This document shows, piece after piece, positions 3-64,000 of a DNA stretch of 64,000 bases. The first letter of the stretch is position 1; every line of letters starts with the position of its first letter. The position numbers and the translations under genes are program-made. The DNA is from a virus (Duplodnaviria; Heunggongvirae; Uroviricota; Caudoviricetes). Location: positions 109,091-173,090 of the IMG/VR virus record IMGVR_UViG_3300022697_000186; one strand, given 5' to 3'. A model generated the notes under the pieces. The model saw only the letters and a program-made list of their open reading frames with translations. It made no database searches and was not told the DNA's origin.

Positions 3-851
3 GGAACATCTAAAGCAGAACAAGAAGTATTAGAATTTGTAAAACAATACTATCCAAATGTAGAAAATCCAAATAGAACTATTTTAGATGGTAAACATAT
101 TGATATCTACATACCAGAGTTGAAACTAGGAATCGAATATAATGGACTTTACTGGCATTCAGAACTAGGTGGTAAAACTAATCCAAAGTATCATCAGAAT
201 AAAACTTTACTAGCTAAAGAAAAAGGTGTTCATTTAATTCAGATATTTGAAGATGAGTGGATTGAGAAACAGAATATAGTTAAAAGTATATTACTAAATA
301 AAATGGGTAAATCACCTAATAAGATATTCGCTAGAAAGTGTAAAATTAAAGAAGTTGATAACAAGATTGCTAAACAGTTTTTATTTGATAATCATTTGCA
401 AGGTGAAATCAATGGAACTCATTTGGGTCTTTATTTTGAATCTGAATTAGTTTCTATGATTTCTATGGGAAAATCTAGATTTAATAAATCATTTGATTAT
501 GAAATTTTAAGATTTTGTAACAAGTTAAACACATCAGTTACTGGTGGATTATCTAAGGTACTAAGTTACTTTAAAAAGTTAAATCATGATAGTTCTATTA
601 TTACTTATGCTGATGCAAGATATGGTGAAGGTAAGGGATATGAGAAATGTGGGTTTGAATATAAGAAATTAACTAGTCCAGGTTATTATTATCTTAAAAA
701 TAATATTAGGGAATCAAGAATGAAATATCAAAAATACAAATTAAAAGATTTATTAGAAGTGTTTGATCCAAATCTTACTGAATGGCAGAATATGCAATTA
801 AACGGTTTCGATAGGATTTGGGATTGTGGTAATTATAAATATGAATTATAA
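3..851 (+). CDS. Free-standing nuclease, copy 1 (Hef-like homing endonuclease family), 5'-truncated by the window edge
   Basis: The frame is open from nt 3 (GTSKAEQEVLEFVKQYYP...). It has the IDIYIPELKLGIEYNGLYWHS PD-(D/E)xK-type motif followed by the ARKC...ITYADARYGEGKGY domain, and is paralogous to 7793-9670, 59900-61675 and 62387-64000. Confidence 0.8.
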   Translation, partial: GTSKAEQEVLEFVKQYYPNVENPNRTILDGKHIDIYIPELKLGIEYNGLYWHSELGGKTNPKYHQNKTLLAKEKGVHLIQIFEDEWIEKQNIVKSILLNKMGKSPNKIFARKCKIKEVDNKIAKQFLFDNHLQGEINGTHLGLYFESELVSMISMGKSRFNKSFDYEILRFCNKLNTSVTGGLSKVLSYFKKLNHDSSIITYADARYGEGKGYEKCGFEYKKLTSPGYYYLKNNIRESRMKYQKYKLKDLLEVFDPNLTEWQNMQLNGFDRIWDCGNYKYEL

Positions 852-6702: not shown

Positions 6703-7128
6703 ATGAGTAATATTGAAAAATTTCTTGTAAAAATACCTGGTTCAATTTCTACTCCTAATGATGTTGATGCATCAATTACGGAGGCTGGTGATCTATTAGA
6801 ATTAACTGGTGTTGATGTAATAGTTAGAAGTTTGACCAGATTATTTTTACTACCATCTAATACATATATATTTGACCCACCTCTAGGTACTGGTCTTTAT
6901 AAATATGTTTTTGAACCAGTTGATACAATAACTAAAGCATCAATAGAGCAAGAAATTCAATTTAATATTGCAAGATATGAAACTAGGGCTGAGATTAAGT
7001 TTAAAGTATTATTCTTTAAAAATAAAAAAGGGTTTAGAATTAATTTAAATGTAGGATATGAAGGAAAAAATAAAACTGTGAATGTTGATATTGATGAATC
7101 ATTAATTAGAACACTTGGTGCTACTTAA
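6703..7128 (+). CDS. Baseplate wedge protein, gp25-like
   Basis: IVRSL..LF......YIFDPPLGTGL..YVFEP...I..EI...I.RYE pattern. The start is set to ATG 6703 from RBS spacing; the ORF track starts at GTG 6694. Confidence 0.8.
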   Translation: MSNIEKFLVKIPGSISTPNDVDASITEAGDLLELTGVDVIVRSLTRLFLLPSNTYIFDPPLGTGLYKYVFEPVDTITKASIEQEIQFNIARYETRAEIKFKVLFFKNKKGFRINLNVGYEGKNKTVNVDIDESLIRTLGAT

Positions 7129-7791
7129 ATGGAAAATTATATAAGAAAATATAACTACATCAAAGATTATTATGAAACAGTATATGATCTTTATGCGGAA
7201 AATTATCCTGGTTATCCTGTCACATATTATGCATTAGATAATGAAAATTCTGTAATGGATAGAGAAAATTTAATGGCTGGTGCATATGAAAGACAAGGTG
7301 TTGGAAAACTATCTGGATTTTTATGGCGCAAAATATCTATGTTACCTGTATTTGGAATAGAACAAATACAACCAACTCAAGATTCAGGTGAAAAAGGATT
7401 AACATATCAACAATCAGAAAATACACAAATATCATTTCCATCTAAATATAATTTTAGACCATCAGAAAATGATATAATACATTTCTCGCAAGAATTTTTA
7501 AAGAAAGCAGCATTAGATATAAAACCTTTATTTGTAGTATCAAATGTAAATCTCGCTACATATGGTGAAATAACAATGTATCAATGTGTATTAAAACCAG
7601 CACCGTTTTCAAGAGATGAACTTGAAAAACAAATAAGCTCTTATTGGATGTTTATGAATCTTGATAAAAAAATACATAGAGCAGATAATGCTCAATTAAT
7701 GTTAAGACTACAAAATAAATCTGAACAACTATCAGATAGACTTAGAACACTATTCCATGATCCTACTGGTACATATTTGGAACAGGTTTAA
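7129..7791 (+). CDS. Virion structural protein (possibly neck/head-tail connector-like)
   Basis: Coupled to the gp25-like gene; assignment rests on context only. Confidence 0.45.
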   Translation: MENYIRKYNYIKDYYETVYDLYAENYPGYPVTYYALDNENSVMDRENLMAGAYERQGVGKLSGFLWRKISMLPVFGIEQIQPTQDSGEKGLTYQQSENTQISFPSKYNFRPSENDIIHFSQEFLKKAALDIKPLFVVSNVNLATYGEITMYQCVLKPAPFSRDELEKQISSYWMFMNLDKKIHRADNAQLMLRLQNKSEQLSDRLRTLFHDPTGTYLEQV

Positions 7792-7792
7792 A

Positions 7793-9670
7793 ATGATTAA
7801 ATGTAAAATATGTGATAAACTTTATAAAAATTTAGTCGGGTTATCATCTCATTTAACACAAATTCATCATATTAAACCTAAAGAATACTATGATCAAAAC
7901 TTTATGAAATTAAAGGAAGATACATGTTTTTATAATAATTGTAAAGAAACAGGAATTAATTCATTCATAAGTATGTCTCAAGGTTATCATAAATATTGTT
8001 CAGTTATTTGTGCAACTAATTCAAAAGAAACTAGAGAAAAAACTAGACAAACCTATTTAAAAAGATACGGTGTAGATAATCCTTCAAAATCAAAAACTAT
8101 ACAGGATAAATTTAAAAAGACATGTTTAAAAAAATATGGTGTAGATAATCCTATGAAAAACAAAGATATAGTTAAAACAGTAGAAAATAATAATTTAAAA
8201 AAATATGGCGTGAAATGGTTATTATTAACGGATGATGTTAAATCTAAATCTAAACAAACTATGTTAAAAAAATATGGTGTAGATAATCCTATGAAAAATA
8301 AAAAAATCAAAGAGAAATCTAAACAAACATGCTTAGAGAGATATGGTGTAAATAGTTATTCTAAAACAAAATTATTTAAAGAAAAATATAAAAGTACTAT
8401 GTTAGAAAGACATGGTGTAGAACATGCTTTACAAGTAGAAGAGTTTAAAGAGAAATCTAAACAAACTTGTCTGAAAAGATATGGTACTGAAATTGCTTCC
8501 TCCTCTGAAATTATAAAAAATAGAATTATTAAAAATAATTTAAAAAAATATAATAAACATCATGTACTACAAGTTAAAGAAATTAAAGATAAAATTAAAA
8601 AAACTAGACAAAATAATTTTTATAATATGTTAATTAATTCTAATAGATTAAAAAATCTAGTTACACCTTTATTTGAATTATTAATTTTTAAGGGTGTAAA
8701 AAATAGTTATTTTTGGAAATGTAACAAATGTGAAACTGAATTCGAAGATAATTTGGATAATGGTAAAGTTCCTAGATGCCCAACTTGTTATCCTATATTA
8801 GCAAAAAATACTTCAATTGGTGAACAAGAAGTACTAGAATTTGTTAAACAATATTATCCTAGTGTAGAAAATCCAAATAAGACTATTTTAAATGGTAAAC
8901 ATATAGATATCTACATTCCAGAAATTAAACTAGGAATAGAATATCATGGGCTTTATTGGCATAGTGAAAGTATAATTTTAAATAAAAATTACCATCAAGA
9001 AAAACACTTATTAGCTAAAGAAAAAAATGTTCAATTAATACAGATATTTGAAGATGAATGGATTGAGAAACAGAATATCATTAAAAGTATATTATTAAAT
9101 AAAATGGGTAAATCTCCCAATAAAGTATTCGCTAGAAAGTGTAAAATTAAAGAAGTTTCTAATAAAGAAGCTAAACAATTTTTATTTGATAATCATCTTC
9201 AGAGTGAAATCAATGGAACTCATATGGGTCTTTATTTTGAATCTGAATTAGTTTCTATGATTACGATGGGTAAATCTAGATTTAATAAGAAGTATGATTA
9301 TGAAATTTTAAGATTCTGTAATAAGTTGAATTATTCAATTACTGGTGGATTATCTAGACTTCTTTCTCACTTTAAAAAATTAAATCCAAATAGTTCTATT
9401 ATTACATATGCTGATGCTAGATATGGTACAGGATCCGGATATGAAAACTGTGGATTTGAATATAAAGAATTAACTAACCCAAATTACTTTTATTTAAAAA
9501 ATAATGGTAGAGAAAATAGAATAGGTTATCAGAAACATAAGTTAGAAAATTTATTAGAATCATTTGATTCTACTTTAACTGAATGGCAAAATATGCAATT
9601 AAATGGTTTCGATAGAATATGGGATGCAGGCAATTATGTTTATAATATAGGAGTTAATCCATGTCATTAG
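7793..9670 (+). CDS. Free-standing nuclease, copy 2 (C2H2 finger, eight 23-aa repeats, Zn ribbon, PD-(D/E)xK, Mom/GNAT-like domain)
   Basis: CKIC-x12-H-x4-H finger; KxYGVxN repeats; CNKC...CPTC; DIYIPEIKLGIEYHG. It sits inside the baseplate operon and its 3' end contains the RBS of the next gene. Confidence 0.8.
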   Translation: MIKCKICDKLYKNLVGLSSHLTQIHHIKPKEYYDQNFMKLKEDTCFYNNCKETGINSFISMSQGYHKYCSVICATNSKETREKTRQTYLKRYGVDNPSKSKTIQDKFKKTCLKKYGVDNPMKNKDIVKTVENNNLKKYGVKWLLLTDDVKSKSKQTMLKKYGVDNPMKNKKIKEKSKQTCLERYGVNSYSKTKLFKEKYKSTMLERHGVEHALQVEEFKEKSKQTCLKRYGTEIASSSEIIKNRIIKNNLKKYNKHHVLQVKEIKDKIKKTRQNNFYNMLINSNRLKNLVTPLFELLIFKGVKNSYFWKCNKCETEFEDNLDNGKVPRCPTCYPILAKNTSIGEQEVLEFVKQYYPSVENPNKTILNGKHIDIYIPEIKLGIEYHGLYWHSESIILNKNYHQEKHLLAKEKNVQLIQIFEDEWIEKQNIIKSILLNKMGKSPNKVFARKCKIKEVSNKEAKQFLFDNHLQSEINGTHMGLYFESELVSMITMGKSRFNKKYDYEILRFCNKLNYSITGGLSRLLSHFKKLNPNSSIITYADARYGTGSGYENCGFEYKELTNPNYFYLKNNGRENRIGYQKHKLENLLESFDSTLTEWQNMQLNGFDRIWDAGNYVYNIGVNPCH

Positions 9671-12246
9671 ATGAAAAAAGTATAGATATCTATAGTTCTA
9701 GAGATAAGATACGTACAGAGCTTATTAAATATATGCAGGAGCATTTAGAGTTAGAAAATGTAGATTTAACAAAAACCTCTTATTTATCATACCTCGTAAA
9801 TACACTTTCTGTTTTAACTTCTAATTTACTATTTTACAATTCAAGTGTATATAAGGAGATGTTCCTTACTAAAGCTACATTAAAAGAATCAGTTCTTAAT
9901 TTAGCAGCTATGTTAAGTTATACTCCAGCGTTTGCTACCACTGCAACTTCAGCATTACTTATAGAAATACCTTTGGGTTTTACAAGTGATGTTAATATTG
10001 TATTGGAAAAAGGTTTTAAATATTATGCAAACGATGTTATATTTACCCAAAATAATGAAATTAGATTAGATATTAAATCTACTGGTACAGCAATTGTTAC
10101 TGAAATACCTAGTACTGGGGGTTCACAGGTTGTTATTTCTTCTATAAATTCTAATACACTTATTTTCGCAGTATCAGTTACACAGGTGGAAGAAATTCCA
10201 TTAACATACCAAATACCCTCATTAAAACCTTTTGAATTTTATACATTAGAAACAAATTTTGATGGTCAAATTTCTAGTATGGTTGTTACAACTACAGATC
10301 AAGGAAGTCAAATATCAGAAACTTGGATATCTTATAATTCTTTATTTTTAATACCTAGTGGTATAAGGGGATTTGCTTTTAGAAAAACTGAATCTGGTGG
10401 TAGATTATTTTTTGGTAATGGTGTTGTTGGAATACAACCTAGTGAAAATGCTACTGTAACAATATCTATGAATATCACAAAAGGTAGTAGTGGTAATGTT
10501 ATATCTGGTTCTATTGTAAAAGCTCAAAGAGTATATGTTGAAGATCTAGTTGGTACAAAGTTAATAAGAAAACCTGTACAAATTACTGTAACAAATGTTT
10601 CACCTGCTACTGGAGGGGCAGATTCTCCTACAATGGATGAAATAAGAAGCGGTGCTATAACAAGTTTATCTTCTAGAGGACGTCTTGTTTCTCAAAGTGA
10701 TTATAATAATATTAAAGATATAGTTACTAATTTTATTTCTGATCATTCAATTGATATTGTTAAAAGAAGTGATTTAAAAAGAAATGAAATATGTGTATTT
10801 TCAGACATATTATTTCAAGGTCTAATAGTACCAACAAGAAATACTATTTGGAATGTAGATAGTACAGCTGGAGATAGTACTGCTGCAGTTTCAACTACAA
10901 CAGAATTCGTAAGAACTAATGATGTAGCATCTATAAATAATGCCGATTATTATAGTATGTTTAATATAGAGATTAATCCTTTACTTAAAGAGGCTAATTA
11001 TTTTTATCAAATTGATTCTGTTGAAAAACCATTAGTATTAAGTAGAACTTATACAACTGAAACAAAAATATCTTTAGATAAAGTTAAATTTCATGTTGAT
11101 TCAACAAAAACAAATCTTTTAATTGATTTATATTTTACAGAGATAGTTGCTGCAACATATACTGAATTGAGTTGTGAGATGGTAGCCGACTGGGATGGTG
11201 TTGAACGACAGATGGTTAGAAATGTTGATCCTGCCCCTGGTGGAGGTTTCTTAGAAGAATTCACAGTATCAATTCCTTTAACAGAACCATTAGATGGTGA
11301 TTGGAATTATTATTTTAGAATGTATGATTTAGTTGCAGGTACAAAAGAATATATAAATGAATCATATGTAGAAATTACTGTTAAGAAAGATTTAAGTGAT
11401 TTTATGTATAGCTCAGTTGATGTTACAGGAACTCCAGGAAATTATAATATAACAATTTATGATGTTCCTGTTATAAAGAAAAGTTGGTATGATACAACTA
11501 ATGCAGATTCATTTACTTTAAATGTTTTGGAAAAAATTATTAATTTAGATGTAACATCATATAGAATGATGACAGATTTTTTAAATTTAAAATTTAGTAA
11601 TACTACAGGTATATTAAGTAATATGCATAAATTTAATCCAACAGATAAAGATCCAGTTATATCTGTTAATCCTGAAACTAAACCAACTTCACCACTTAAT
11701 GGAGATAGATATTTAATTACTTCTGAAGCATCACATATTTATAGTTCCGGTGTAGTTCCATGGAATGAAACTGGTACACGTATAGGTGGTTTTATAGTTC
11801 AATATTCATCATCAACCTCAACTTGGGCTTATGAAAAACTTGATATAAACGATATTATTTACGTTGTAGATGTTGGTTCTAATTTGATATATAATGGTTC
11901 ATCCATGGTATCAATGATTAGTATGATTCCTTTAGAGATTAGCTTGATTATTTGGAAAGATCGAAGTGTATCAACTGTTGATACAGCATTATCTGCTTTA
12001 ATAAAAACAGAATTAATTGCTGCTCTAGGTCCTAATTTTGGATTTGATAAAGGTTTATATACTTCACAAATAATAAAAATTGTTCAATCAATTAAAGGTG
12101 TAGCAAATGTTAAGGTAGTAAGTCCAAGACATGATATATTTTTTAGTTACGATAAATATAAAGATTTTTCTGAACAAGATTTATTAGAATATGGACCAGA
12201 TCTTATTTACTTTAGTGCTGATCAAATATCAATTGAAATTAGATAA
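9661..12246 (+). CDS. Baseplate wedge protein (T4 gp6-like)
   Basis: FLTKATLKESVLNLAAMLSYTP, FFGNGVVGIQP, ATGGAD..T.DEIR, R.VSQSDY motifs. Confidence 0.85.
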   Translation: MSLDEKSIDIYSSRDKIRTELIKYMQEHLELENVDLTKTSYLSYLVNTLSVLTSNLLFYNSSVYKEMFLTKATLKESVLNLAAMLSYTPAFATTATSALLIEIPLGFTSDVNIVLEKGFKYYANDVIFTQNNEIRLDIKSTGTAIVTEIPSTGGSQVVISSINSNTLIFAVSVTQVEEIPLTYQIPSLKPFEFYTLETNFDGQISSMVVTTTDQGSQISETWISYNSLFLIPSGIRGFAFRKTESGGRLFFGNGVVGIQPSENATVTISMNITKGSSGNVISGSIVKAQRVYVEDLVGTKLIRKPVQITVTNVSPATGGADSPTMDEIRSGAITSLSSRGRLVSQSDYNNIKDIVTNFISDHSIDIVKRSDLKRNEICVFSDILFQGLIVPTRNTIWNVDSTAGDSTAAVSTTTEFVRTNDVASINNADYYSMFNIEINPLLKEANYFYQIDSVEKPLVLSRTYTTETKISLDKVKFHVDSTKTNLLIDLYFTEIVAATYTELSCEMVADWDGVERQMVRNVDPAPGGGFLEEFTVSIPLTEPLDGDWNYYFRMYDLVAGTKEYINESYVEITVKKDLSDFMYSSVDVTGTPGNYNITIYDVPVIKKSWYDTTNADSFTLNVLEKIINLDVTSYRMMTDFLNLKFSNTTGILSNMHKFNPTDKDPVISVNPETKPTSPLNGDRYLITSEASHIYSSGVVPWNETGTRIGGFIVQYSSSTSTWAYEKLDINDIIYVVDVGSNLIYNGSSMVSMISMIPLEISLIIWKDRSVSTVDTALSALIKTELIAALGPNFGFDKGLYTSQIIKIVQSIKGVANVKVVSPRHDIFFSYDKYKDFSEQDLLEYGPDLIYFSADQISIEIR

Positions 12247-14511: not shown

Positions 14512-17500
14512 CTATTCAAATTTAGTTTTAGTAAGTGCTTCTGTGTTCGGATCCATTTGGGAATTGGATCCACCTCCACCACCTGCACCTGCAATATTAT
14601 TAGCATTTGAATTAGATACAATTGTAGTCATGTTATTATAATAGTTTATTGTTTCTGCTGAAAGTTTATCTATACTTTTAGTTGTTTCTTTAGCACCTAT
14701 AGCATTTAAATCAGCTTTAACTTTGGCATTAGCTGATGATGAATTAGCTAATTGACTTTTGTCCATTTGTGCTAACCCAGGTGTATCCTGTACTTTTGAA
14801 AATTTACCATCAATAACCTCATATTTATTACCTTGTTTCATACCAGAAGATACAGTATGGATTGCACCTGCGGCTTTAGAATATGATTTATAGTTAGTAC
14901 CGTATTTTTTATTTATTGCTTCCACTTGACTAGCTTTATTTTGTTTAGCTGTTGCAGCATGCTCTTTATTTAATTCATCAAGACTTTGAAATTTATGTTT
15001 TATCCATCTCATAGCCATTGCAGCTGCAGCTATAACAGGTAAAAATGGGGCAATCAATGCACCAACACTAGCTATAGCTCCACCAATAGAAGCCATAATA
15101 GCCATTATAGCTTTTTTCTTAAACCAAGTTTGAACTTTTGATGTTGCTTTAGATGTCTTTTTAATTTTAGTAGTATTCCAATCAATTGATTTTAAATATT
15201 TATTACCTTGTTTTAATAAACTAATAACTTTAGAAGGCCATTTTGCATATATAGCCTTACCGTCAGCATCCTTACCAATGACTTCCATACCTAAAATCTT
15301 TTTAGCAAAATTTTGAGCTTTACCTTTGACCCAATTTTTTGCCTTAGTAAATTTATCTATTATACCTTGAAATGGACTCATTAAAAACTTTTTAAATCCA
15401 GTCCAAGCACCAGACATAACTTTTCCTATTTTACTTGGGATTGATAATACACCATCATAAACTTTTTCTAATTTATTTACAATTTTGTCACCAATGTAAT
15501 TTAGTGTTTTCCATAAACCTTTAACTGGTAAAGATACAGTATCATATATTAATCCTCCTAAACCTTTAGCTATTCCCCAAGCTCCTGATATTGGTGCAGT
15601 TATAGCTTCCCATAAACCTTTACCTACAGCTCCTGCTATTGTAAATGGTAATTTAACTGCAGATATAGATAAATCAGTAATACCACCAGCAATTTTAGAT
15701 AGTACACCTTGTGTACCTTTTACTCCTCCTGCTGAAAATAAATCAACAATTTCTTGTAATTTAGCAACAATTGGTTGTGTTATGATTTCATCTAATGTTT
15801 GACTCACAGGCATTATAAATTCACCTTTATGAACTTTAGCCATACCATCATTGGCTACTTGTCCACCAACAGCAAACTCTGATGTACCTTTAATTATCCT
15901 GTCTGCTTTTATATTTTCTGCAGTTGCTTCTTTCATTTGCTCGTACATACTCATAACTTCTTTTTTTATTTTAGTTTTATTATCACCTAGTTGTTCCCAA
16001 TCCTTTTTTAAATTTTTTTCTAAACCTGTTTTTATATATACATCTATAGCACTAATCAATTCAAGAAATTTATCTACGGCTGTATCCATTACTTTTATAT
16101 ATGGTTCAGTTGCAATTTCAATAGCTTTAAATATAGTTGCAAAACCAGATACTATACTAGCAACTATCCCTTTTTTATCACCTTTTTTTTCTTCGAATAT
16201 TTTTTTAAATTCAATATTAAATGTTGATTTAAATGAAGCAAGTGCAGCTGATTGCCAACCTATAATTAATTTCTGTATTTCTTCAAATATTTTAGCCCAA
16301 CCATCAGGTAATATTTTATTAATAAAATTTACTTTTAATTCAGAAATAGTTTCAGCTAAACCTAAATCAGCTGTATCTTTTAAAATTAACCATTTGGACC
16401 AGACATCAACAATGCTTCCAGTAATACCTGATAAAGCTCCCCACATTGAATATAATATACCCATAAAACTACCATCAACTAATTTTATTTCTTTCAGTTT
16501 ACCACCAACCCATTTATGTGGTGTTTTAGCTATTTTTTCATTAATCGATTTGTTACCACCAAATACTCTAATTGAATCAATTATAGGTGTAATGTTTGAT
16601 TTTATTATTTCTATTAGACCTAACATTACATTCGTTATTTCAATAGGTAAATTACCTATTGCAGTTACTGCTTTTTTTACAGCATCAGGTATTAATATAT
16701 TATAACCATCTGTAATCATTGTTTCTAATTTATCAAATATTGTAGCTTTATCTCCAACTTTAGTTTTATCACCTATAAGTATTTTTCTCATTTTTTCATA
16801 TACTAAACTTAATAAATTACCAAGGAAACTTTTACCTTCATCTTGCTCTTTTTCACCAACAAATAAATTTCTAATACCTTCAATTATAGAATCAACAACA
16901 TTTTTACCTTTTCGTGTTCCTGATGTCCAAAGATCTTTTATTGATTCTGCGATTCTTTTAGGTAAACCTTCAATTGATGCCCACATCTCTCGTAATATTT
17001 CAGGTATTTTTGATAAACCTGCAGTAAAGAAACTTAATATTCCTCCAAAGAATCCGCCGCCTCCAGGTTTTTGTTCTTCTCCATTTGTTGTGCCAGCAGA
17101 CCTCGCTTTTTCTGAAGTACCGCCTCCGAATTTTGATTTAAGATTTTCCCAAAGTTCTTTAGGTTGCCCTATCATTTCACCTTTATGTACTGTAGCATCA
17201 CCAGTTTCTATAACTAATCCTCCAACGGCAGCCATTGGTTTAATTTTAGCACCTTTTTTAACTTCACTAAATCCTTCACCAGGTGTTTTCCCAATTCCTA
17301 ATAATCCACCTAATTTTGAACCTGCAAACATTTTTTGTTTTAGCATACCACCAAGTAATTGTCCTAATGATCTAGCTCTTGGTTTTTCTAAACTACCTTC
17401 TACATTTAATCCAATTTGTAAAAGTCTAGATTGTGCTAATATTAAATCATTTATCTCACTTGATGCAAATCTTTGAGCTACATACATTATACCAAGTGTT

Positions 17501-18657
17501 TGATTAATTGCTTGAAATATACCCTTTTTTGGATCTGGTAATTCTGATCTATATCCCATACCAAATATAGGAACTGAATATGCTAATACTTTTCCGACAC
17601 CCATTTGTAATTCAAATGTGCCTTTCATTGATCTTCTTAAATCATCAAGTATTTTAGTTTGTTTATCATCATTTTTTATTTTTAATTCTTTTCTTAGTTT
17701 AGCATCAACCTTCATTCTTGTTTTAGGACTTAATATATTCTCAGAAGCAGTAACTACATTTAATGGTTTACTTGGATCACTACCAAATGAATCATCGGCT
17801 GATGCAACAGACATAGCGCCAGACTTAGTTGATGGCATACCTTCTATCCAAGTTTTTAATACATCAAATCCATCAGATGTTTTTTTAGCTAAACCTTTAG
17901 TAATTTCCCATGTCTTAGCAGTAATTCCTGGACCACCATCATCCATACTTTCTTTCTTATTACTATTAAGGAATAATTCATTAAATAATGATCCAGCAAT
18001 TGGTCCGCCAATCTTACTTAAAACACCAGCACCCAAATTCTTTTTAAATGAACCTGTTGCATCACTTTTAAAATCACCCATTAATTCTCTAGAGAATTCA
18101 TCTTGACCCCCTGCATAAAAATTATAAGCACTTTTAGCACCTCTAATAGGTGATGTTGCAATATTTGCCGCTTTTTTAGCACCCCATTTACCACCAGTTG
18201 CAGCATAACCTAAAGCAGCACCCCCACCAGCTAATAAACCATACTTAGCAGCACTAGTAAGTCCTTGTCCTATATATGACAATGGTTCTTTTAAATCAAG
18301 CATAGAACGATTTAATTCTTCAGTTACATCTGATAATTTTTCTGAACTCTCATTAAATTCTTTAGAACTTTCACTAAGAGACATAGCACTCTGTGTTAAT
18401 TTATCAGTACTTTCACTTAATTGTTTAATAGGTTCATGCATTTCTTTTTTAGATTTAGTTAATTCTTTAGTAAGTTGTTCAACAGCTTGTTTATTCATCA
18501 TACCAGATTTATCAATTAACTTTACTTCCTTAGAAGTATTCTCTCGTATAGCTTTAGTATGAGCGTCAATTGAATTACTAAGTGATCCTAAGTTTCTTTT
18601 AAACTTCTGTTGTTCTGAAGCTAGTTTCTTAGAATCATCTTTAATATCATCTACCAT
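14512..18657 (-). CDS. Tape measure-like protein (1381 aa)
   Basis: Long helical G/A/K/I-rich sequence with an N-terminal coiled coil, 11-residue aromatic periodicity in the C-terminal half and two VHKGE motifs. Confidence 0.75.
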   Translation of the reverse strand: MVDDIKDDSKKLASEQQKFKRNLGSLSNSIDAHTKAIRENTSKEVKLIDKSGMMNKQAVEQLTKELTKSKKEMHEPIKQLSESTDKLTQSAMSLSESSKEFNESSEKLSDVTEELNRSMLDLKEPLSYIGQGLTSAAKYGLLAGGGAALGYAATGGKWGAKKAANIATSPIRGAKSAYNFYAGGQDEFSRELMGDFKSDATGSFKKNLGAGVLSKIGGPIAGSLFNELFLNSNKKESMDDGGPGITAKTWEITKGLAKKTSDGFDVLKTWIEGMPSTKSGAMSVASADDSFGSDPSKPLNVVTASENILSPKTRMKVDAKLRKELKIKNDDKQTKILDDLRRSMKGTFELQMGVGKVLAYSVPIFGMGYRSELPDPKKGIFQAINQTLGIMYVAQRFASSEINDLILAQSRLLQIGLNVEGSLEKPRARSLGQLLGGMLKQKMFAGSKLGGLLGIGKTPGEGFSEVKKGAKIKPMAAVGGLVIETGDATVHKGEMIGQPKELWENLKSKFGGGTSEKARSAGTTNGEEQKPGGGGFFGGILSFFTAGLSKIPEILREMWASIEGLPKRIAESIKDLWTSGTRKGKNVVDSIIEGIRNLFVGEKEQDEGKSFLGNLLSLVYEKMRKILIGDKTKVGDKATIFDKLETMITDGYNILIPDAVKKAVTAIGNLPIEITNVMLGLIEIIKSNITPIIDSIRVFGGNKSINEKIAKTPHKWVGGKLKEIKLVDGSFMGILYSMWGALSGITGSIVDVWSKWLILKDTADLGLAETISELKVNFINKILPDGWAKIFEEIQKLIIGWQSAALASFKSTFNIEFKKIFEEKKGDKKGIVASIVSGFATIFKAIEIATEPYIKVMDTAVDKFLELISAIDVYIKTGLEKNLKKDWEQLGDNKTKIKKEVMSMYEQMKEATAENIKADRIIKGTSEFAVGGQVANDGMAKVHKGEFIMPVSQTLDEIITQPIVAKLQEIVDLFSAGGVKGTQGVLSKIAGGITDLSISAVKLPFTIAGAVGKGLWEAITAPISGAWGIAKGLGGLIYDTVSLPVKGLWKTLNYIGDKIVNKLEKVYDGVLSIPSKIGKVMSGAWTGFKKFLMSPFQGIIDKFTKAKNWVKGKAQNFAKKILGMEVIGKDADGKAIYAKWPSKVISLLKQGNKYLKSIDWNTTKIKKTSKATSKVQTWFKKKAIMAIMASIGGAIASVGALIAPFLPVIAAAAMAMRWIKHKFQSLDELNKEHAATAKQNKASQVEAINKKYGTNYKSYSKAAGAIHTVSSGMKQGNKYEVIDGKFSKVQDTPGLAQMDKSQLANSSSANAKVKADLNAIGAKETTKSIDKLSAETINYYNNMTTIVSNSNANNIAGAGGGGGSNSQMDPNTEALTKTKFE

Positions 18658-58411: not shown

Positions 58412-58612
58412 TTAAACATTACTCTTATCTATAAATGCCGAAAGTATTCCAAATAATGTTGCTCCTGCTAAACCACCTATAATCATTTTAAAATAATCAA
58501 TGTACGTAAAATAGGAAACTATTGATACATATATTTTAAAACCTATAGTACTTGCAGCAAATATACAGATAATTATAGATAATCCTGTTAGTATTTTAAA
58601 TAAAACACTCAT
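58412..58612 (-). CDS. Small membrane protein
   Basis: Two hydrophobic helices. Confidence 0.55.
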   Translation of the reverse strand: MSVLFKILTGLSIIICIFAASTIGFKIYVSIVSYFTYIDYFKMIIGGLAGATLFGILSAFIDKSNV

Positions 58613-59937
58613 AATAAACTCCCATATTCATTAACACAAAAAGATTTCACATCTTTTAAATTATTTGTATATTCTTTAATTATTTTTTCAGTTTCTTTAA
58701 TGTCTAAACTTACACTCATAAGTTTTCTTATCTGATATTTTGAAACAATTTCTTTAATTATATCTATATTTATTTTAGTTAATTTAGATAATTCTAAACA
58801 CATTTTCTCTGGTGTATCTTTAATTTGTAAAACCTTGGATAAATGTGGTCTAATATTTTTGATAACATCATATTCCTTAATTTTATTTTTTAAATCACTT
58901 ATCTGATGTTTAAAATATACAGAAACAGTTTCTGTATAAAAATTAAAAGAATTTAATAACATTTGATCTACTGAATTTTCTTCTGTAATACCATTAGAAT
59001 TAACGGTTATAATACCGTATGTCAAACTATCTTCTAACGAAGTTTTAATTGCATCTAACATTTTATTATATATTTCTTCTTTGTTTCTTTGTTTCTGTAC
59101 TTCAAATCTAATTCTAGTACCATTTGATTTTGTAGATTGATCTATAAACCCTACATCACTATTACTAAGAATTTTATTTTTATCATGTCTATCTATTTTA
59201 TCTAACAATGTTTGAAACTTTGTTCTAGGACTCCAACCATTAATATAGATTCTCCAATTCTTTTTATCTTCAGTATATTTCCCTTGTATTTGTATTCTAC
59301 CATTACCTTTTTGTAATAACTGTTTTAGTTCTTTCTTTTTAGATGTAACTTTACAATTAATAATATTTGGTGCTGGTACATATTCTTTTTCCAATTCAAG
59401 TAAAAACATTAATCGTTTAATTAAATCAGTATACTTATAACATGGTATTTCAGTTTTATATCCAAATGCGATAGATGTCATTTCATATTTACCCATTAAA
59501 CAAAAAGGTATCATTGTAGGTAGTGTTAAAGGTTCAGGGTCAGCTTCAATTTCTTTCCACTCAACATGTTTAACATATTTAAAAGCTAATTCTTCTATTC
59601 TATTGTTAGCCTTTATTTTTGTATATCTAGGTGCAGCACAACCAATTGGTTCAGTTCCTATTTTAGAACCCCATGAGCCTCCACCATCTAAAAATTCATT
59701 TTGTACTGCCCATGATGCTGTACCTAAAGCTTCAGAGAATGGATGCCATCGTGCCATACACTCACCAAGAATCTTAGTTGTTTTAACATAAGACCCTTTA
59801 GCTATTGTATGAGCAGTAAGTAATATTCTTTTTTGTACAGGTAATAAACCATCAATACAATTAGGAAGCATTTTATTTTGATTTACATATCTGCCATAAT
59901 TACCGTATAACTGTGGTACTAATTTTTCCAAATACAT
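58609..59937 (-). CDS. Type IIA topoisomerase subunit A (T4 gp52/GyrA-ParC N-terminal-like, no CTD); probable start TTG 59931
   Basis: DGLLPVQKRIL, WHP, G.WGS, and catalytic AAPRYT motifs. Confidence 0.9.
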   Translation of the reverse strand: MYLEKLVPQLYGNYGRYVNQNKMLPNCIDGLLPVQKRILLTAHTIAKGSYVKTTKILGECMARWHPFSEALGTASWAVQNEFLDGGGSWGSKIGTEPIGCAAPRYTKIKANNRIEELAFKYVKHVEWKEIEADPEPLTLPTMIPFCLMGKYEMTSIAFGYKTEIPCYKYTDLIKRLMFLLELEKEYVPAPNIINCKVTSKKKELKQLLQKGNGRIQIQGKYTEDKKNWRIYINGWSPRTKFQTLLDKIDRHDKNKILSNSDVGFIDQSTKSNGTRIRFEVQKQRNKEEIYNKMLDAIKTSLEDSLTYGIITVNSNGITEENSVDQMLLNSFNFYTETVSVYFKHQISDLKNKIKEYDVIKNIRPHLSKVLQIKDTPEKMCLELSKLTKINIDIIKEIVSKYQIRKLMSVSLDIKETEKIIKEYTNNLKDVKSFCVNEYGSLL

Positions 59938-61675
59938 CTCCTTTGTTTAATTTGTAAATATAACTATAATTACCACAGTCCCAAATTCTATCGAATCCGT
60001 TTAGCTGCATATTTTGCCATTCAGTTAAAGTGGAATCAAATGATTCTAATAAGTTTTTTAATTTATGTTTTTGATAACCTATTCTGTTTTCTCTCTGATT
60101 ATTGTTAATATAGTAATAACTAGGATTTGTTAATTCTTTATATACAAAACCTGAATTAAGATACCCTTTACCTTCACCATATCTTGCATCAGCATATGTG
60201 ATAATAGAACTATTTGGGTTTAACTTTTTAAAGTAACTAAGAATTTTTGAAAGTCCACCAGTAATGGAATAATTTAATTTATTACAGAATCTGAGTATTT
60301 CATAATCATACTTCTTATTAAATCTAGATTTACCCATCGTAATCAGAGATATTAATTTCTCTTCGTAATATAAACCAATATGAATTCCGTTTATAGGTCC
60401 TTGTAAATGATTATCAAAAAGAAACTGTTTAGCTTCTTTGTTCTCAACCTTTTGTATTTGACATTTTCTAGCAAATATCTTATTAGGTGATTTACCCATT
60501 TTATTTAAAAGAATTGATTTCACTATATCTTTCTTGTTTAACCATTCATCCTCAAATATCTGTATTAAATGAATACCTTTAGATTTTGCAAGTAAAGTTT
60601 TGTCTTGGTGGTATTTAGGTTCTTTATTACCACCTATTTCACTGTGCCAATATAATCCGTTGTACTCAATTCCTAATTTTAACTCTTCAATATAGATGTC
60701 AATTTCTTTACCTTCTAAAATTTCTCTATCTGATTTAGATTCTGGGTAGTATTTCTGTATAAAAGATAGGACTTCTTGTTCCTCAATTGAGGTACCAGTT
60801 AGAGGAGGATAACAAATTGGACATCTGGGAATATCACCATGATTAATACCAGAATCAAATTCAGTTTCACATTTGTTACATTTCCAAAGATATTTTATTT
60901 CACCTACTTCATATTTATAAGTTCCTATATAATCTTCTAATTTAAATAAAGGTGTAACTAAATCTTTTAATCTGCTTGAATTTAATAAATTATCAAACCA
61001 TTTTTTTCTTTTCGATTTAATATTTTTTTCTTTAAATTTTTCTACTTGTGATGTATGTTCTACTCCATATCTTTTCAGACAAGTTTGTTTATATTTTTCT
61101 CGTATTTCTTTATTTTGAAAAACGTTTTCAACTCCATATCTATCTAAATTAGTTTTCTTTATTTTATCTTGAAATTTCTTTGTTTTGGAAGGATGTTCTG
61201 AACCATATTTTTCTAAACAGGTTTGTTTAGACTTCTCTTTAAATTCTTTAGTTTTAAAATAACTATTTATACCATATCTATCTAAACATGTCTTTATCTT
61301 TTTTTGTTTAATTTCATTTGAGTATGATACGTTATCTACACCATAATTCTCTAATAAAGTTTTCTTTATCTTTTCTTTTATGTCTTTATTTTGAAAAGTA
61401 TTCTCTGCCCCGTATCTATCTAAACAAGTTTTTTTATATTTACTTCTAGTTTCTTTATCATTTGCACTACACTTTGTAGAACAAAACTTACCATACCCTT
61501 TACTTAATGATATGAAAGTTGTTTCTTTTCCACATGTACAATACTTAATTTTTCCTAAGAATTTATTAAAATATTCTTTTCTATTTGGATGATATTTATT
61601 CTGGACGATATGACTAGTTAAACTTAATAAATTTTTAAATTGTCTATTACATATCATACATTTATACAAATACAT
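59900..61675 (-). CDS. Free-standing nuclease, copy 3 (six 23-aa repeats); probable start TTG 61669
   Basis: Same architecture as copy 2; its 3' end overlaps the topoisomerase start. Confidence 0.8.
   Translation of the reverse strand: MYLYKCMICNRQFKNLLSLTSHIVQNKYHPNRKEYFNKFLGKIKYCTCGKETTFISLSKGYGKFCSTKCSANDKETRSKYKKTCLDRYGAENTFQNKDIKEKIKKTLLENYGVDNVSYSNEIKQKKIKTCLDRYGINSYFKTKEFKEKSKQTCLEKYGSEHPSKTKKFQDKIKKTNLDRYGVENVFQNKEIREKYKQTCLKRYGVEHTSQVEKFKEKNIKSKRKKWFDNLLNSSRLKDLVTPLFKLEDYIGTYKYEVGEIKYLWKCNKCETEFDSGINHGDIPRCPICYPPLTGTSIEEQEVLSFIQKYYPESKSDREILEGKEIDIYIEELKLGIEYNGLYWHSEIGGNKEPKYHQDKTLLAKSKGIHLIQIFEDEWLNKKDIVKSILLNKMGKSPNKIFARKCQIQKVENKEAKQFLFDNHLQGPINGIHIGLYYEEKLISLITMGKSRFNKKYDYEILRFCNKLNYSITGGLSKILSYFKKLNPNSSIITYADARYGEGKGYLNSGFVYKELTNPSYYYINNNQRENRIGYQKHKLKNLLESFDSTLTEWQNMQLNGFDRIWDCGNYSYIYKLNKGDVFGKISTTVIR
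59929..59944 (-). repeat. 16-bp direct repeat, copy A (RBS and start of the topoisomerase gene)
   Basis: The + strand reads CAAATACATCTCCTTT, identical to 61667-61682. Confidence 0.9.
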
Positions 61676-61682
61676 CTCCTTT
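61667..61682 (-). repeat. 16-bp direct repeat, copy B (RBS and start of nuclease copy 3)
   Basis: The + strand reads CAAATACATCTCCTTT, identical to 59929-59944. Confidence 0.9.
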
Positions 61683-61713
61683 ATTTATATCTAACTGAAA
61701 AAGTTATCCTTGA

Positions 61714-62073
61714 TCATAGGAAAGATAAAAAGCATCCTCGTCTTTTTCTAGGTTTATATTTTCTTCTAGGTTTATATTTTTTAGGTTCTCTAGGATACTC
61801 AATATGTTCATCTAATTCCGGAAACATATGATTAAATAATTTTTTATTATTAATACTGTTTTTTCCAAATTCTCTACCAAAATTTCCATTTCGTAATCTT
61901 CTATCATATTTATGTAATAATTCAGAATAATTATAATAATTTATATTACCATAATATTTAGTAGTTGTTTCAAATCTATCTTTATGTTCTATATTCCATT
62001 TAATGTCAATATTAACAGGTACCATTCTTGGACTATCAGATGTAGATATAAGTTCTGTTATATTTAGATTCAT
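61714..62073 (-). CDS. Hypothetical protein with a basic repetitive tail
   Basis: An 18-nt tandem repeat (61746-61780) encodes KKYKPRRKYKPR; weak paralog of 62073-62399. Confidence 0.6.
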   Translation of the reverse strand: MNLNITELISTSDSPRMVPVNIDIKWNIEHKDRFETTTKYYGNINYYNYSELLHKYDRRLRNGNFGREFGKNSINNKKLFNHMFPELDEHIEYPREPKKYKPRRKYKPRKRRGCFLSFL

Positions 62074-62399
62074 TATTTATATCTCCTTTTTCTTGACATT
62101 GTTCTCTCTCTTATTGGAATTATATCATGACCTAATTCATCAAATAATTTATTAAATCTTTTTTTATTAATCTTAATATATTCTCCGTATTTTTGACTAA
62201 AATCAGACAGTAATGTACCATAACATGATTTAGCCATCTCATGAAATTTATCATCAACATTCCATCTATACTTTCCTTGGTCAGCATTAACTAAATCACT
62301 TGAAAACTTAATCTGATAATTTATTTTAAATTTTATATTATCCCATTTAATATCTAAACAGTAATCATATTCATTGACTAATAACCTCATAATCTCCAT
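62073..62399 (-). CDS. Hypothetical protein, weak paralog of 61714-62073
   Basis: LDIKW...INKKRFNKLFDEL versus IDIKW...INNKKLFNHMFPEL. Confidence 0.6.
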   Translation of the reverse strand: MEIMRLLVNEYDYCLDIKWDNIKFKINYQIKFSSDLVNADQGKYRWNVDDKFHEMAKSCYGTLLSDFSQKYGEYIKINKKRFNKLFDELGHDIIPIRERTMSRKRRYK

Positions 62400-64000
62400 T
62401 CATATTTATAGTTGCCACAATCCCAAATTCTATCAAATCCATTTAGCTGCATATTTTGCCATTCAGTTAAAGTAGAATCAAACACTTCTAATAGTTTGTC
62501 CAGTTTATACTTTTGATATTTCATTCTTGATTCCCTACTATTATTTTCTAAATAAAAATAGTTAGGATTAGTAAGTTCTTTAAACTTAAATCCACAAGAT
62601 TCATATCCCTTACCTTCACCATACCTGGCATCAGCATAAGTAATAATAGAACTATTTGGATTTAACTTTTTAAAATGCTTTAATAATTTAGATAGACCAC
62701 CTGTAACTGAGGTGTTTAATTTGTTACAAAACCTTAAAATCTCGTAATCAATTGACTTATTAAATCTTGATTTACCCATCGTAATCATAGAAACTAATTC
62801 AGATTCAAAATAAAGACCTATATGAATTCCATTAATTTCAGATTGTAAGTGATTATCAAATAGAAATTGTTTAGCTTCTTTGTTTTCTACAGATTTAATT
62901 ATACACTTTCTAGCGTATATTTTAACAGGTGATTTACTCATTTTATTTAAAATGATACTCTTAACTATATCCTGTTTATTAAACCATTCATCCTCAAATA
63001 TCTGTATTAACTGAATACCTTTTTCTTTAGCTAGTAAAGTTTTATTCTGATGATATCTAGGTTCTTTATTTCCTGCAAGCTCAGAGTGCCAATATAATCC
63101 GTTGTATTCAACTCCCAATTTGATTTCTGGTATATAGATGTCAATATGTTTACCATCTAAAATAGTTCTATTTGGATTTTCTACATTTGGATAGTATTGT
63201 TTTACAAATTCTAATACTTCTTGTTCCGCTTGAGATGTACCAGATACTAATTTAGGATAACAAGTAGGACACCTTGGTATTTTACCATTGTTTATATTAT
63301 CTTCGAATTCAGTTTTACATTTAGTACATTTCCAAGAATATATAGAATAATTTAATGTACCTTTATATTCTTTACTGTTAAATGAAGGAGTAACTAAATC
63401 TTTTAATCTATCTGAATTTAGTAGTTTATTATAAAAGATTTTTCTATTAGTTTCTGATGTTTTATGTGATATAAATTTTGATTTTCCAATACAATCTACA
63501 CCATATCTATCTAAACATGTTTGTTTAGTTTTTTCTTTTATAACTTCTAATTTCATTGGGTTATCTACACCATAATTCTTTAGAAATGTCTTTTTAGATT
63601 TTTCTGCAAAATCATTCATTTGACTAGGATTTTCTACACCATATCTTTTTAACCATGTTTGCTTTGATTTGGATTTCATTATTTTTGATTGTGTTGAATA
63701 TTCTACATTATATCTTTCTAAACAAGTTTGTTTTTTCTTATTATTAGATTCTTCTGATTTAGAATTATGTTCAACACCATATTTAATTAACATTGTTTTC
63801 TTTTGTTTTTCTCTTGTAATTGGATTTTTTGTAGAACAACTATAAGAACAATGTTTTTGATATCCTAATCCTAATCCTATAAATTTATTATCTTTTTTAC
63901 AAACTAAACATTTATTTGCATTATTTTTTAATAAAAATTTATCAAAATAATATTTAGTATTTACATTATGAACTTTAGAGATATGTGATGATAATCCTAG
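62387..64000 (-). CDS. Free-standing nuclease, copy 4 (five 23-aa repeats), 5'-truncated by the window edge
   Basis: The frame is open from 64000 (LGLSSHISKVH...CLVC...YQKHCSYSC); same architecture as copies 2 and 3. Confidence 0.8.
   Translation of the reverse strand, partial: LGLSSHISKVHNVNTKYYFDKFLLKNNANKCLVCKKDNKFIGLGLGYQKHCSYSCSTKNPITREKQKKTMLIKYGVEHNSKSEESNNKKKQTCLERYNVEYSTQSKIMKSKSKQTWLKRYGVENPSQMNDFAEKSKKTFLKNYGVDNPMKLEVIKEKTKQTCLDRYGVDCIGKSKFISHKTSETNRKIFYNKLLNSDRLKDLVTPSFNSKEYKGTLNYSIYSWKCTKCKTEFEDNINNGKIPRCPTCYPKLVSGTSQAEQEVLEFVKQYYPNVENPNRTILDGKHIDIYIPEIKLGVEYNGLYWHSELAGNKEPRYHQNKTLLAKEKGIQLIQIFEDEWFNKQDIVKSIILNKMSKSPVKIYARKCIIKSVENKEAKQFLFDNHLQSEINGIHIGLYFESELVSMITMGKSRFNKSIDYEILRFCNKLNTSVTGGLSKLLKHFKKLNPNSSIITYADARYGEGKGYESCGFKFKELTNPNYFYLENNSRESRMKYQKYKLDKLLEVFDSTLTEWQNMQLNGFDRIWDCGNYKYEWRL

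What the first reader, a model, noticed from the sequence alone, without database searches (positions are those of the whole stretch)
7793..9670. Four-copy nuclease family fused to a Mom/GNAT-like domain: a self-modifying selfish element?
Seen in all four copies (3-851, 7793-9670, 59900-61675, 62387-64000): after the PD-(D/E)xK motif (DIYI.E.KLG.EY.G) comes a conserved ~190-aa domain with YEILRFC...GGLS..L..F...IITYADARYG.G.GY...GF.Y. Inference: this resembles the acetyl-CoA-binding region of GNAT proteins, in particular phage Mu Mom-like DNA-modifying enzymes (established as GNAT fold). A nuclease plus DNA acyltransferase in one chain would behave like a single-polypeptide restriction-modification unit that protects its own genome while cutting competitors.
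Basis: partly seen in the sequence, partly recalled or inferred. Interest (0 to 1): 0.7.

Follow-up and report, generated by a model that had tools for sequence, protein, structure and literature searches.

The report
Hef-type homing nucleases with Mom domain
These four genes (twelve in the whole phage contig) are selfish DNA-cutting "homing endonuclease" genes of the known Hef type. Their C-terminal part does have the fold of phage Mu's DNA-modifying enzyme Mom. The fusion has been described in print before, and what the Mom-like part does has never been tested.

Summary
The four copies are real, intact paralogues. The 236-kb jumbo-phage contig holds twelve.

Each protein has, in order:
- a C2H2-type zinc finger and a Cys4 knuckle
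- about nine 23-residue helical repeats (DUF7487)
- a treble-clef zinc ribbon
- a GNAT domain whose best Foldseek hit is Mu Mom (8BV8, E 6e-6)

The residues equivalent to Mom's H58, R111, S124, D149, R151 and Y159 are kept in all twelve copies. Among the paralogues the Mom-like part is as constrained as the nuclease (dN/dS 0.13 against 0.14).

The family is not new:
- It is the "Hef-like homing endonuclease" family (PHROG 3339; 16,729 cluster representatives match the C-domain).
- Iyer et al. (2021) already described Mom–REase fusions in jumbo phages as predicted restriction-plus-self-protection units.

The context fits homing:
- The copies abut the tail sheath, baseplate wedge and both topoisomerase genes, and one lies in a gene broken by a split intein.
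- The GyrB|GyrA junction that holds two copies here is empty in related contigs and holds HNH genes in others.

The single-chain restriction-modification reading is untested. The proposed acetyl-CoA assay is dated, because Mom uses Gly-tRNA(Gly). I rate this a new member of a known kind, of modest interest.

The parts
7793..9670 (+). Copy c4, whole gene (625 aa from the ATG at 7793; an ATG at 7757 is also open). It starts 2 nt after the stop of the upstream baseplate-module gene and overlaps the start of the baseplate wedge gene at 9661.
   Evidence: full-length AF2 model: mean pLDDT 91.1, pTM 0.53
7793..8020 (+). c4 N-terminal zinc modules: a beta-beta-alpha C2H2-type finger (aa 2-24) and a second Cys4 knuckle (C45, C50, C69, C73 are nearly invariant in the family).
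   Evidence: (weak zf-C2H2 hits)
8024..8635 (+). c4 array of about nine 23-residue helix-turn repeats (Pfam DUF7487), aa 78-281. The number of repeats varies among the 12 copies. Presumed DNA-binding arm (inferred).
   Evidence: (DUF7487, 3.6e-38)
8714..8800 (+). c4 treble-clef zinc ribbon (C310, C313, C329, C332).
   Evidence: (DUF4379)
8807..9118 (+). c4 Vsr-like 'EDxHD' nuclease domain (aa 339-442; E344, D372, E383, H390).
9119..9643 (+). c4 Mom-like GNAT domain (aa 443-617; H468, E504, R507, S521, D541, R543, Y550).
3..317 (+). Copy c3 (gene starts 846 nt before the window): nuclease domain.
318..851 (+). Copy c3: Mom-like GNAT domain through the stop codon. The tail sheath gene (876-2555) follows 24 nt later.
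   Evidence: (PF25680, 1.2e-6)
59900..61675 (-). Copy c5, whole gene (591 aa): nuclease 60485-60796, Mom-like domain 59960-60484. It overlaps the start of the GyrA-like topoisomerase II gene (58609-59937).
62387..64000 (-). Copy c6 (551 aa, first 14 codons beyond the window end): nuclease 62927-63241, Mom-like domain 62402-62926. Its ATG directly follows the stop of the GyrB-like topoisomerase II gene.

Best explanation
These are free-standing homing endonuclease genes of the Hef type. This phage lineage has expanded them to 12 paralogues. SHOWN HERE: each protein carries zinc fingers and a variable array of 23-residue helical repeats. A constant two-domain cassette follows, made of a Vsr-like (EDxHD) nuclease packed against a Mom-like GNAT domain. 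Both active sites are intact in all 12 copies and under equally strong purifying selection. The genes sit tightly between, or inside, conserved essential genes, at junctions that are empty or hold other endonuclease genes in relatives. INFERRED: the arm docks the protein on a long site in the neighbouring conserved gene of a phage genome that lacks the endonuclease gene. The nuclease cuts there, and recombinational repair copies the gene in. Also inferred, and the least certain step: the Mom-like domain is an active transferase that flips out and modifies a base (adenine, by analogy with Mom) at or near the bound site, using an activated acyl or aminoacyl donor. For Mom that donor is Gly-tRNA(Gly). 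The modification would mark the carrier genome or the repaired product and shield it from re-cutting. My odds: Hef-type homing endonuclease about 0.85. Given that, the Mom-like part catalytically modifies DNA about 0.55-0.6. That the modification serves self-immunity, about 0.3 overall. The confidence given for this explanation (0.5) is for the homing endonuclease reading together with a catalytically active, DNA-modifying Mom-like domain.
Against: No cleavage, homing or modification data exist for these proteins. The alleles without an endonuclease gene come from relatives only 41-47% identical in GyrA. The sequence link to Mu Mom itself is weak (hhalign E 0.015). Pfam Mom passes its cut-off for one of the four window copies only, and 16 of 37 relatives match it at E <= 0.01. 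The Ser equivalent to Mom S124, whose Ala mutant is dead in Mom, is G, A, N or D in 21% of relatives. 81 of 241 relatives with an intact nuclease lack the Ser or the Asp/Arg pair. The T-even protein at the hef locus has Asn at the D149 position. So transferase activity may not be needed everywhere in the family. From my memory of Sandegren et al. 2005 (paper not held), Hef of phage U5 cut its own DNA as well as that of phages lacking the gene, which does not suggest built-in immunity. As far as I recall, that assay used unmodified DNA.
Confidence: 0.5

Rival explanations
1. Same Hef-type homing endonuclease, but the Mom-like domain is no longer a transferase. It would serve as a DNA-binding, base-flipping or dimerisation module that helps position the nuclease. 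Mom is a dimer and has a DNA-binding insertion.
For: The least conserved of the Mom-equivalent residues is the Ser whose Ala mutant kills Mom: 201 of 256 keep it, and 10 are naturally Ala. The invariant residues include R170, the equivalent of Mom R111, which the 2020 study assigned to substrate or base recognition rather than cofactor binding. The cassette is predicted as one rigid unit, pTM 0.91. I-Bth0305I needs dimerisation for activity.
Against: Six of the residues that matter in Mom are kept in all 12 copies, and five of them in 92-100% of relatives. dN/dS equals that of the nuclease. The active nuclease I-Bth0305I needs no such domain.
Confidence: 0.25
2. Single-chain restriction-modification weapon, as the first reader and Iyer et al. 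2021 proposed. The Mom-like domain modifies adenines across the phage's own genome. The nuclease degrades unmodified host or competing-phage DNA. Homing is not the main function.
For: This is a published prediction for Mom-REase fusions of jumbo phages. Both active sites are intact. The nuclease and modification domains sit in one chain, like Type IIG enzymes (my own knowledge).
Against: One enzyme would be enough for that job. Here there are 12 paralogues with a constant cassette and fast-diverging DNA-binding arms. Each sits beside a different conserved gene, at junctions that are polymorphic among relatives and elsewhere hold HNH homing genes. One lies inside a gene broken by a split intein. 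The characterised relatives, Hef and I-Bth0305I, are site-specific homing enzymes. PADLOC gives only a weak 'homing endonuclease' hit.
Confidence: 0.12
3. The Mom-like domain acts on something other than DNA. It could act on a charged tRNA, as GNAT toxins of the TacT/AtaT type do, or on a protein. That would give a second, host-directed activity unrelated to the nuclease.
For: GNAT enzymes have very varied substrates, and some acetylate aminoacyl-tRNA. The substrate cannot be read from the fold.
Against: The closest relative by fold and by profile is the DNA-modifying Mom, not the tRNA-acetylating toxins. The domain is always fused to DNA-binding and DNA-cutting modules.
Confidence: 0.05

Closest known systems
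Hef of T-even phage U5 and the 'Hef-like' free-standing homing endonucleases (PHROG 3339; Campylobacter, ViI-like, AR9 and PA5oct phages)
   Same: Same nuclease + Mom-like cassette: PHROG hit at 1e-135, and 42% identity to a T-even phage protein at the hef locus. Free-standing genes beside conserved genes, often in many copies: 11-13 places in some records.
   Different: At most 64% identical to anything outside this contig. Twelve copies here against 0-2 in related contigs. The arm is a long DUF7487 repeat array with two N-terminal zinc modules. Other members carry DUF723, NUMOD3 or HTH arms.
I-Bth0305I (PDB 3R3P), prototype of the 'EDxHD' Vsr-like homing endonuclease family
   Same: Same nuclease fold and core residues: E6/E170, D34/D196, E45/E206, N47/N208, H52/H213. 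Also has a modular DNA-binding arm.
   Different: I-Bth0305I is intron-encoded, has its nuclease at the C-terminus and has no GNAT domain. Its D222 aligns with a His (H64) here.
Mom of phage Mu (PDB 8BV8; Pfam PF25680)
   Same: GNAT fold with an insertion before the last strands. The residues equivalent to H58, R111, S124, D149, R151 and Y159 are kept.
   Different: Mom is a stand-alone 241-residue enzyme that modifies many adenines genome-wide. Identity here is 15-19%. Y59 is Leu/Ile here. The loop before the Ser is Gly-Gly, more like a classical CoA-binding GNAT loop, so the donor is open.
Mom-REase fusions of jumbo phages, predicted by Iyer, Anantharaman, Krishnan, Burroughs and Aravind (Viruses 2021, PMC7824862)
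   Different: That paper treats them as restriction-like conflict systems and does not tie them to Hef-type homing. The evidence here points to homing.
Type IIG/IIC single-chain restriction-modification enzymes such as MmeI (my own knowledge, not tested here)
   Same: Nuclease, modification domain and DNA-recognition part in one polypeptide. This is a working model of how cutting and protecting could share one target.
   Different: Those use a SAM-dependent methyltransferase and a short recognition site. There is no homology in the modification domain.

Membership tests
Hef-type / EDxHD (Vsr-like) homing endonucleases | Vsr-like restriction-endonuclease fold | tested here: met
Hef-type / EDxHD (Vsr-like) homing endonucleases | Composite catalytic motif E...D...x...H...D (I-Bth0305I E170, D196, N208, H213, D222) | tested here: inconclusive
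   E6, D34, N47 and H52 align with E170, D196, N208 and H213 and are 98-99% conserved. The fifth position, D222, aligns with a nearly invariant His (H64) in this alignment.
Hef-type / EDxHD (Vsr-like) homing endonucleases | Sequence membership in the Hef-like group | tested here: met
   PHROG 3339 at 4e-106 to 7e-139 for all four copies. tblastn hits are annotated Hef-like. 42% identity to the T-even phage gene at the nrdA|nrdB locus.
Hef-type / EDxHD (Vsr-like) homing endonucleases | Free-standing gene at a site that is polymorphic among relatives (presence/absence) | tested here: met
   The GyrB|GyrA junction is 23-65 nt in L005-L007, holds HNH genes in L004 and L010, and holds two Hef-type genes here. 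Copy number is 0-2 in relatives against 12 here.
Hef-type / EDxHD (Vsr-like) homing endonucleases | Site-specific double-strand cleavage near the gene, and over-inheritance in crosses | not testable with these tools
   Needs enzyme assays and phage crosses.
Mom family (Pfam PF25680, GNAT superfamily) | GNAT fold | tested here: met
Mom family (Pfam PF25680, GNAT superfamily) | Score above the Pfam gathering cut-off of PF25680 | tested here: inconclusive
   28.7 bits against a cut-off of 27.1 for copy 3-851. The other three copies are not listed at E <= 0.1. 16 of 37 relatives match at E <= 0.01. PHROG 1384 'Mom-like' matches at 9e-9 and 1e-5 for two copies.
Mom family (Pfam PF25680, GNAT superfamily) | Residues required for momylation (H58, R111, S124, D149, R151, Y159) | tested here: met
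   They align with H131, R170, S184, D204, R206 and Y213, which are present in all 12 copies. Family-wide conservation is 100, 100, 79, 93, 92 and 99%. Y59 is not kept.
Mom family (Pfam PF25680, GNAT superfamily) | Mom-specific insertion between the last strands of the GNAT core (Mom residues ~175-209, essential) | tested here: inconclusive
   The model has a ~45-residue insert of a hairpin plus three helices at residues 224-268, before the last two strands. It has highly conserved R239 and K244. Mom gives the longest structural alignment, 143 residues. No residue-level superposition of the inserts could be seen.
Mom family (Pfam PF25680, GNAT superfamily) | N6-adenine modification of double-stranded DNA with Gly-tRNA(Gly) as donor | not testable with these tools
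   This is the biochemistry of Mom. Nothing is known for the Hef-type domain.
Indirect evidence is mixed: 81 of 241 relatives with an intact nuclease lack one of the Mom-type residues.

The most novel reading that the evidence does not exclude
Hef-type homing endonucleases carry their own epigenetic immunity. Guided by the same DNA-binding arm, the Mom-like domain would install an aminoacyl-tRNA-derived modification on an adenine in the enzyme's own target site. That would let a free-standing selfish gene keep an intact but uncuttable target next to itself. The 12 paralogues would then be 12 site-specific cut-or-protect pairs. The most abundant phage homing endonuclease family would be a large hidden source of site-specific DNA hypermodification.
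Probability: 0.25. Interest if true: 0.75.

Novelty: new member of a known kind. Interest (0 to 1): 0.33.

Why it matters
The family is very large. The C-domain alone matches 16,729 cluster representatives, and some phages carry a dozen copies. Yet the Mom-like half has, as far as I could find, never been assayed. Mom's chemistry was solved only in 2026: a glycyl group is transferred from tRNA to adenine. That makes the question directly testable.

If the domain is active, homing endonucleases would have a form of self-immunity not described before. Phage genomes would then carry site-specific adenine hypermodifications that sequencing pipelines miss.

If the domain is inactive, this is an ordinary, heavily expanded set of selfish genes. 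For this window the practical value is annotation. These four ORFs are Hef-type homing endonuclease genes that mark mobile junctions in the tail, baseplate and topoisomerase modules.

Tried and rejected
- Megablast of 7000-12000 against cultured phages found no match.
- Single-protein search for related loci with the baseplate wedge and GyrB-like proteins found no relatives. An alignment of GyrA-like homologues did find them.
- The baseplate wedge protein has only ~26% identical relatives among cultured phages. The baseplate and tail-sheath junctions were therefore not compared with alleles lacking the gene.
- Sequence searches against PDB, by phmmer and by profile, reached I-Bth0305I but not Mom. 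Only the fold search and Pfam/PHROG made the Mom link.
- NCBIfam gave nothing. PADLOC gave only a weak 'homing endonuclease' hit.
- Sandegren et al. 2005 and Iyer et al. 2009 are not held. What I say of them rests on citing papers and on memory.
- I tested whether loss of Mom-type residues goes with loss of nuclease residues, which obligatory self-protection would predict. Only 8 of 256 relatives have a damaged nuclease, too few to decide.
- I looked for a shared sequence motif in the 60 nt flanking the 12 copies and saw none by eye. I saw only that most start within about 20 nt of the upstream stop codon, several directly after it.
- An assembly duplicate was considered and rejected: the copies differ at 16-37% of residues and dS is about 1.1.

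Full report
**What is there.** The window is part of a 236,091-bp IMG/VR virus contig, estimated 69% complete, with 25-30% G+C.
Identity to 7793-9670 is 80, 63 and 65% overall, and the last ~290 residues are nearly identical.
- Two copies are cut by the window ends.
- The contig holds twelve copies. All are open and 76-84% identical over the last 282 residues.

**Anatomy.** A full-length AlphaFold2 model of 7793-9670 has mean pLDDT 91.1 and pTM 0.53. With Pfam it gives this order:
- a beta-beta-alpha C2H2-type zinc finger (aa 2-24)
- a second Cys4 knuckle
- about nine 23-residue helix-turn units (DUF7487, 3.6e-38), whose number differs between paralogues
- a treble-clef zinc ribbon (DUF4379)
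- a two-domain C-terminal cassette

The cassette alone (window 3-851) folds with pLDDT 96.4 and pTM 0.91. The nuclease and the last domain are therefore predicted to pack as one rigid unit.

**The nuclease.**
- A profile of 37 relatives hits the catalytic domain of the homing endonuclease I-Bth0305I (3R3P) at E 1.2e-5.
- Taylor et al. 2011 named this the 'EDxHD' family and explicitly included the phage Hef-type homing endonucleases in it.
- The residues equivalent to E170, D196, E206, N208 and H213 of I-Bth0305I are kept. Three of them (D34, E45, H52) were counted, and 98-99% of 256 relatives keep them.
- The position of D222 aligns with a conserved His here. I leave that point open.

**The C-domain.**
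- Pfam's Mom family (PF25680) scores 28.7 bits, above its cut-off of 27.1, for copy 3-851.
- PHROG 'Mom-like DNA modification protein' matches two copies, best E 9e-9.
- 16 of 37 relatives match Pfam Mom at E <= 0.01.
- The best Foldseek hit of the model in the PDB is the crystal structure of Mu Mom S124A (8BV8; E 5.9e-6, probability 1.00). Ordinary GNAT acetyltransferases follow.
- Direct profile-to-sequence comparison with Mu Mom is weak (E 0.015), but it puts the key residues in register. Mom R111, S124, D149, R151 and Y159 fall on R170, S184, D204, R206 and Y213. An HMM alignment adds H58 on H131.
- Two independent studies found these same residues to matter for momylation (the 2020 paper numbers them 10 lower).
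- All twelve copies keep them.
- Over 256 relatives, H131, E167 and R170 are invariant. Y213 is kept in 99%, D204 in 93%, R206 in 92% and S184 in 79%.
- The model also has a ~45-residue insert before the last two strands, with conserved basic residues. Mom's essential insertion sits at the same place.
- Among the twelve paralogues dN/dS is 0.13 for this domain and 0.14 for the nuclease. It is about 0.58 for the arm, which is hard to align. dS is about 1.1, near saturation.
- The domain is therefore functional, old and as constrained as the nuclease.

**What kind of element it is.**
- All four copies match PHROG 3339 'homing endonuclease' at 1e-106 to 1e-139.
- 426 phage records hold relatives, many annotated 'Hef-like homing endonuclease' and one 'nuclease/acetyltransferase'.
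- A Tequatrovirus protein lying between nrdA and nrdB is 42% identical over the cassette. That is the locus where hef replaces mobE according to Sandegren et al. 2005, as cited.
- The C-domain alone matches 16,729 representatives of 50%-identity clusters. In the best 150, the domain sits at the C-terminal end of proteins that are nearly all 300-880 residues long.
- This is a very large, known family.

**Context.** The copies sit very tightly against their neighbours. Most start within about 20 nt of the upstream stop codon, several directly after it, and several overlap the next gene. The neighbours are conserved core genes:
- tail sheath
- baseplate wedge
- GyrB-like and GyrA-like topoisomerase II subunits

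One copy outside the window (genome 183114-185183) lies between an RNA polymerase beta' fragment and an ORF that begins with an intein C-terminal splicing region. That Pfam hit is below its cut-off. This is the 'fractured gene' layout in which the Vsr-like homing family was first found.

I looked for alleles without the endonuclease gene.
- In related IMG/VR contigs (GyrA 41-47% identical, same flanking genes), GyrB and GyrA are 23-65 nt apart in L005, L006 and L007.
- The junction holds HNH endonuclease genes in L004 and L010, a helicase-HNH gene in L009 and an SSB gene in L011.
- Here it holds 4.1 kb with two Hef-type genes and two small ORFs.
- The related contigs carry 0-2 Hef-type copies against 12 here.
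- Together this is the usual signature of mobile homing endonuclease genes. It argues against a single general restriction function.

**How it most likely works.** The best-supported reading is a modular homing endonuclease.
- A fast-evolving zinc-finger-plus-repeat arm selects a long site in a conserved gene.
- The Vsr-like nuclease cuts.
- Recombinational repair copies the gene in.
- These steps are inferred from the family, not shown for these proteins.

The role of the Mom-like domain is the open part. Its conserved active site favours a real transferase acting on a flipped-out base at the bound site. The most economical purpose is to shield the carrier genome from re-cutting.

Points against that role:
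- About a fifth of relatives lack the Ser that is essential in Mom.
- A third of the relatives with an intact nuclease lack at least one of the Ser or the Asp/Arg pair.
- The T-even homologue has Asn for the Asp.
- As I remember Sandegren et al. 2005, Hef cut its own DNA too.

A non-catalytic docking or dimerisation role is therefore a serious rival. The donor is unknown. On the other hand, the Gly-Gly-x-Ser loop of this family looks more like a classical CoA-binding GNAT loop than Mom's does. Both donor types should be tried.

**Novelty.** Iyer et al. [quoted passage not shown] The Hef family and its EDxHD nuclease are also described. An earlier report of this scan (e1-5625239) reached the Hef-type reading for six other copies of this contig.

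- the residue-level match to the now-solved Mom
- the equal selective constraint on the two domains
- the junctions without the gene in relatives
- the note that the Mom mechanism published in 2026 changes which experiment is decisive

I rate it a new member of a known kind, with modest interest. There is one reading worth a bench test: site-specific, tRNA-dependent self-immunity of a homing endonuclease.

Noticed in passing
window 58609-64000 and beyond (genome 167699-174938): The two topoisomerase II subunit genes (GyrB-like, 601 aa; GyrA-like, 442 aa) are separated by 4.1 kb holding two Hef-type genes and two small ORFs. Relatives have them adjacent, or with HNH genes, a helicase-HNH gene or an SSB gene in between. 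It is a hot spot for mobile genes, reminiscent of the T4 gene 39/60/52 region.
   Followed up: yes
window 61714-62073 and 62073-62399 (- strand): Two small ORFs (119 and 108 aa) lie between copies c5 and c6. They have no significant Pfam match (one weak hit below cut-off) and no tblastn match in the related loci. Their N-terminal parts look alike, so they may be paralogues. Function unknown.
   Followed up: partly
outside the window: genome 181630-186668 (locus L002:14630-19668): Copy c7 lies exactly between an RNA polymerase beta' fragment (Rpb1 domains 2, 3 and 5) and an ORF whose start matches the intein splicing domain (E 4e-6, below the Pfam cut-off). This looks like a 'fractured gene' with a split intein.
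   Followed up: partly
window 7129-7791 (+) and 14512-18657 (-): A 220-aa protein in the baseplate module and a 1381-aa protein have no PHROG match at 1e-5.
   Followed up: no
all 12 copies, e.g. window 7788-7795 and 64040-64045: Most copies start within about 20 nt of the stop codon of the upstream gene, several directly after it, and several overlap the start of the next gene. There is little room for a promoter or ribosome-binding site of their own. This suggests expression by translational coupling or re-initiation.
   Followed up: partly
L003:1682-3274 (Escherichia phage FL12, between nrdA and nrdB): The T-even phage protein at the hef/mobE locus is annotated 'hypothetical protein'. It carries the same nuclease + Mom-like cassette, with Asn in place of the Asp equivalent to Mom D149.
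   Followed up: partly
L009:2708-6445 (IMGVR_UViG_3300018080_002591): At the same GyrB|GyrA junction a relative carries three genes, including a 637-aa ResIII/DEAD helicase fused to an HNH nuclease. The other two have no Pfam match.
   Followed up: no
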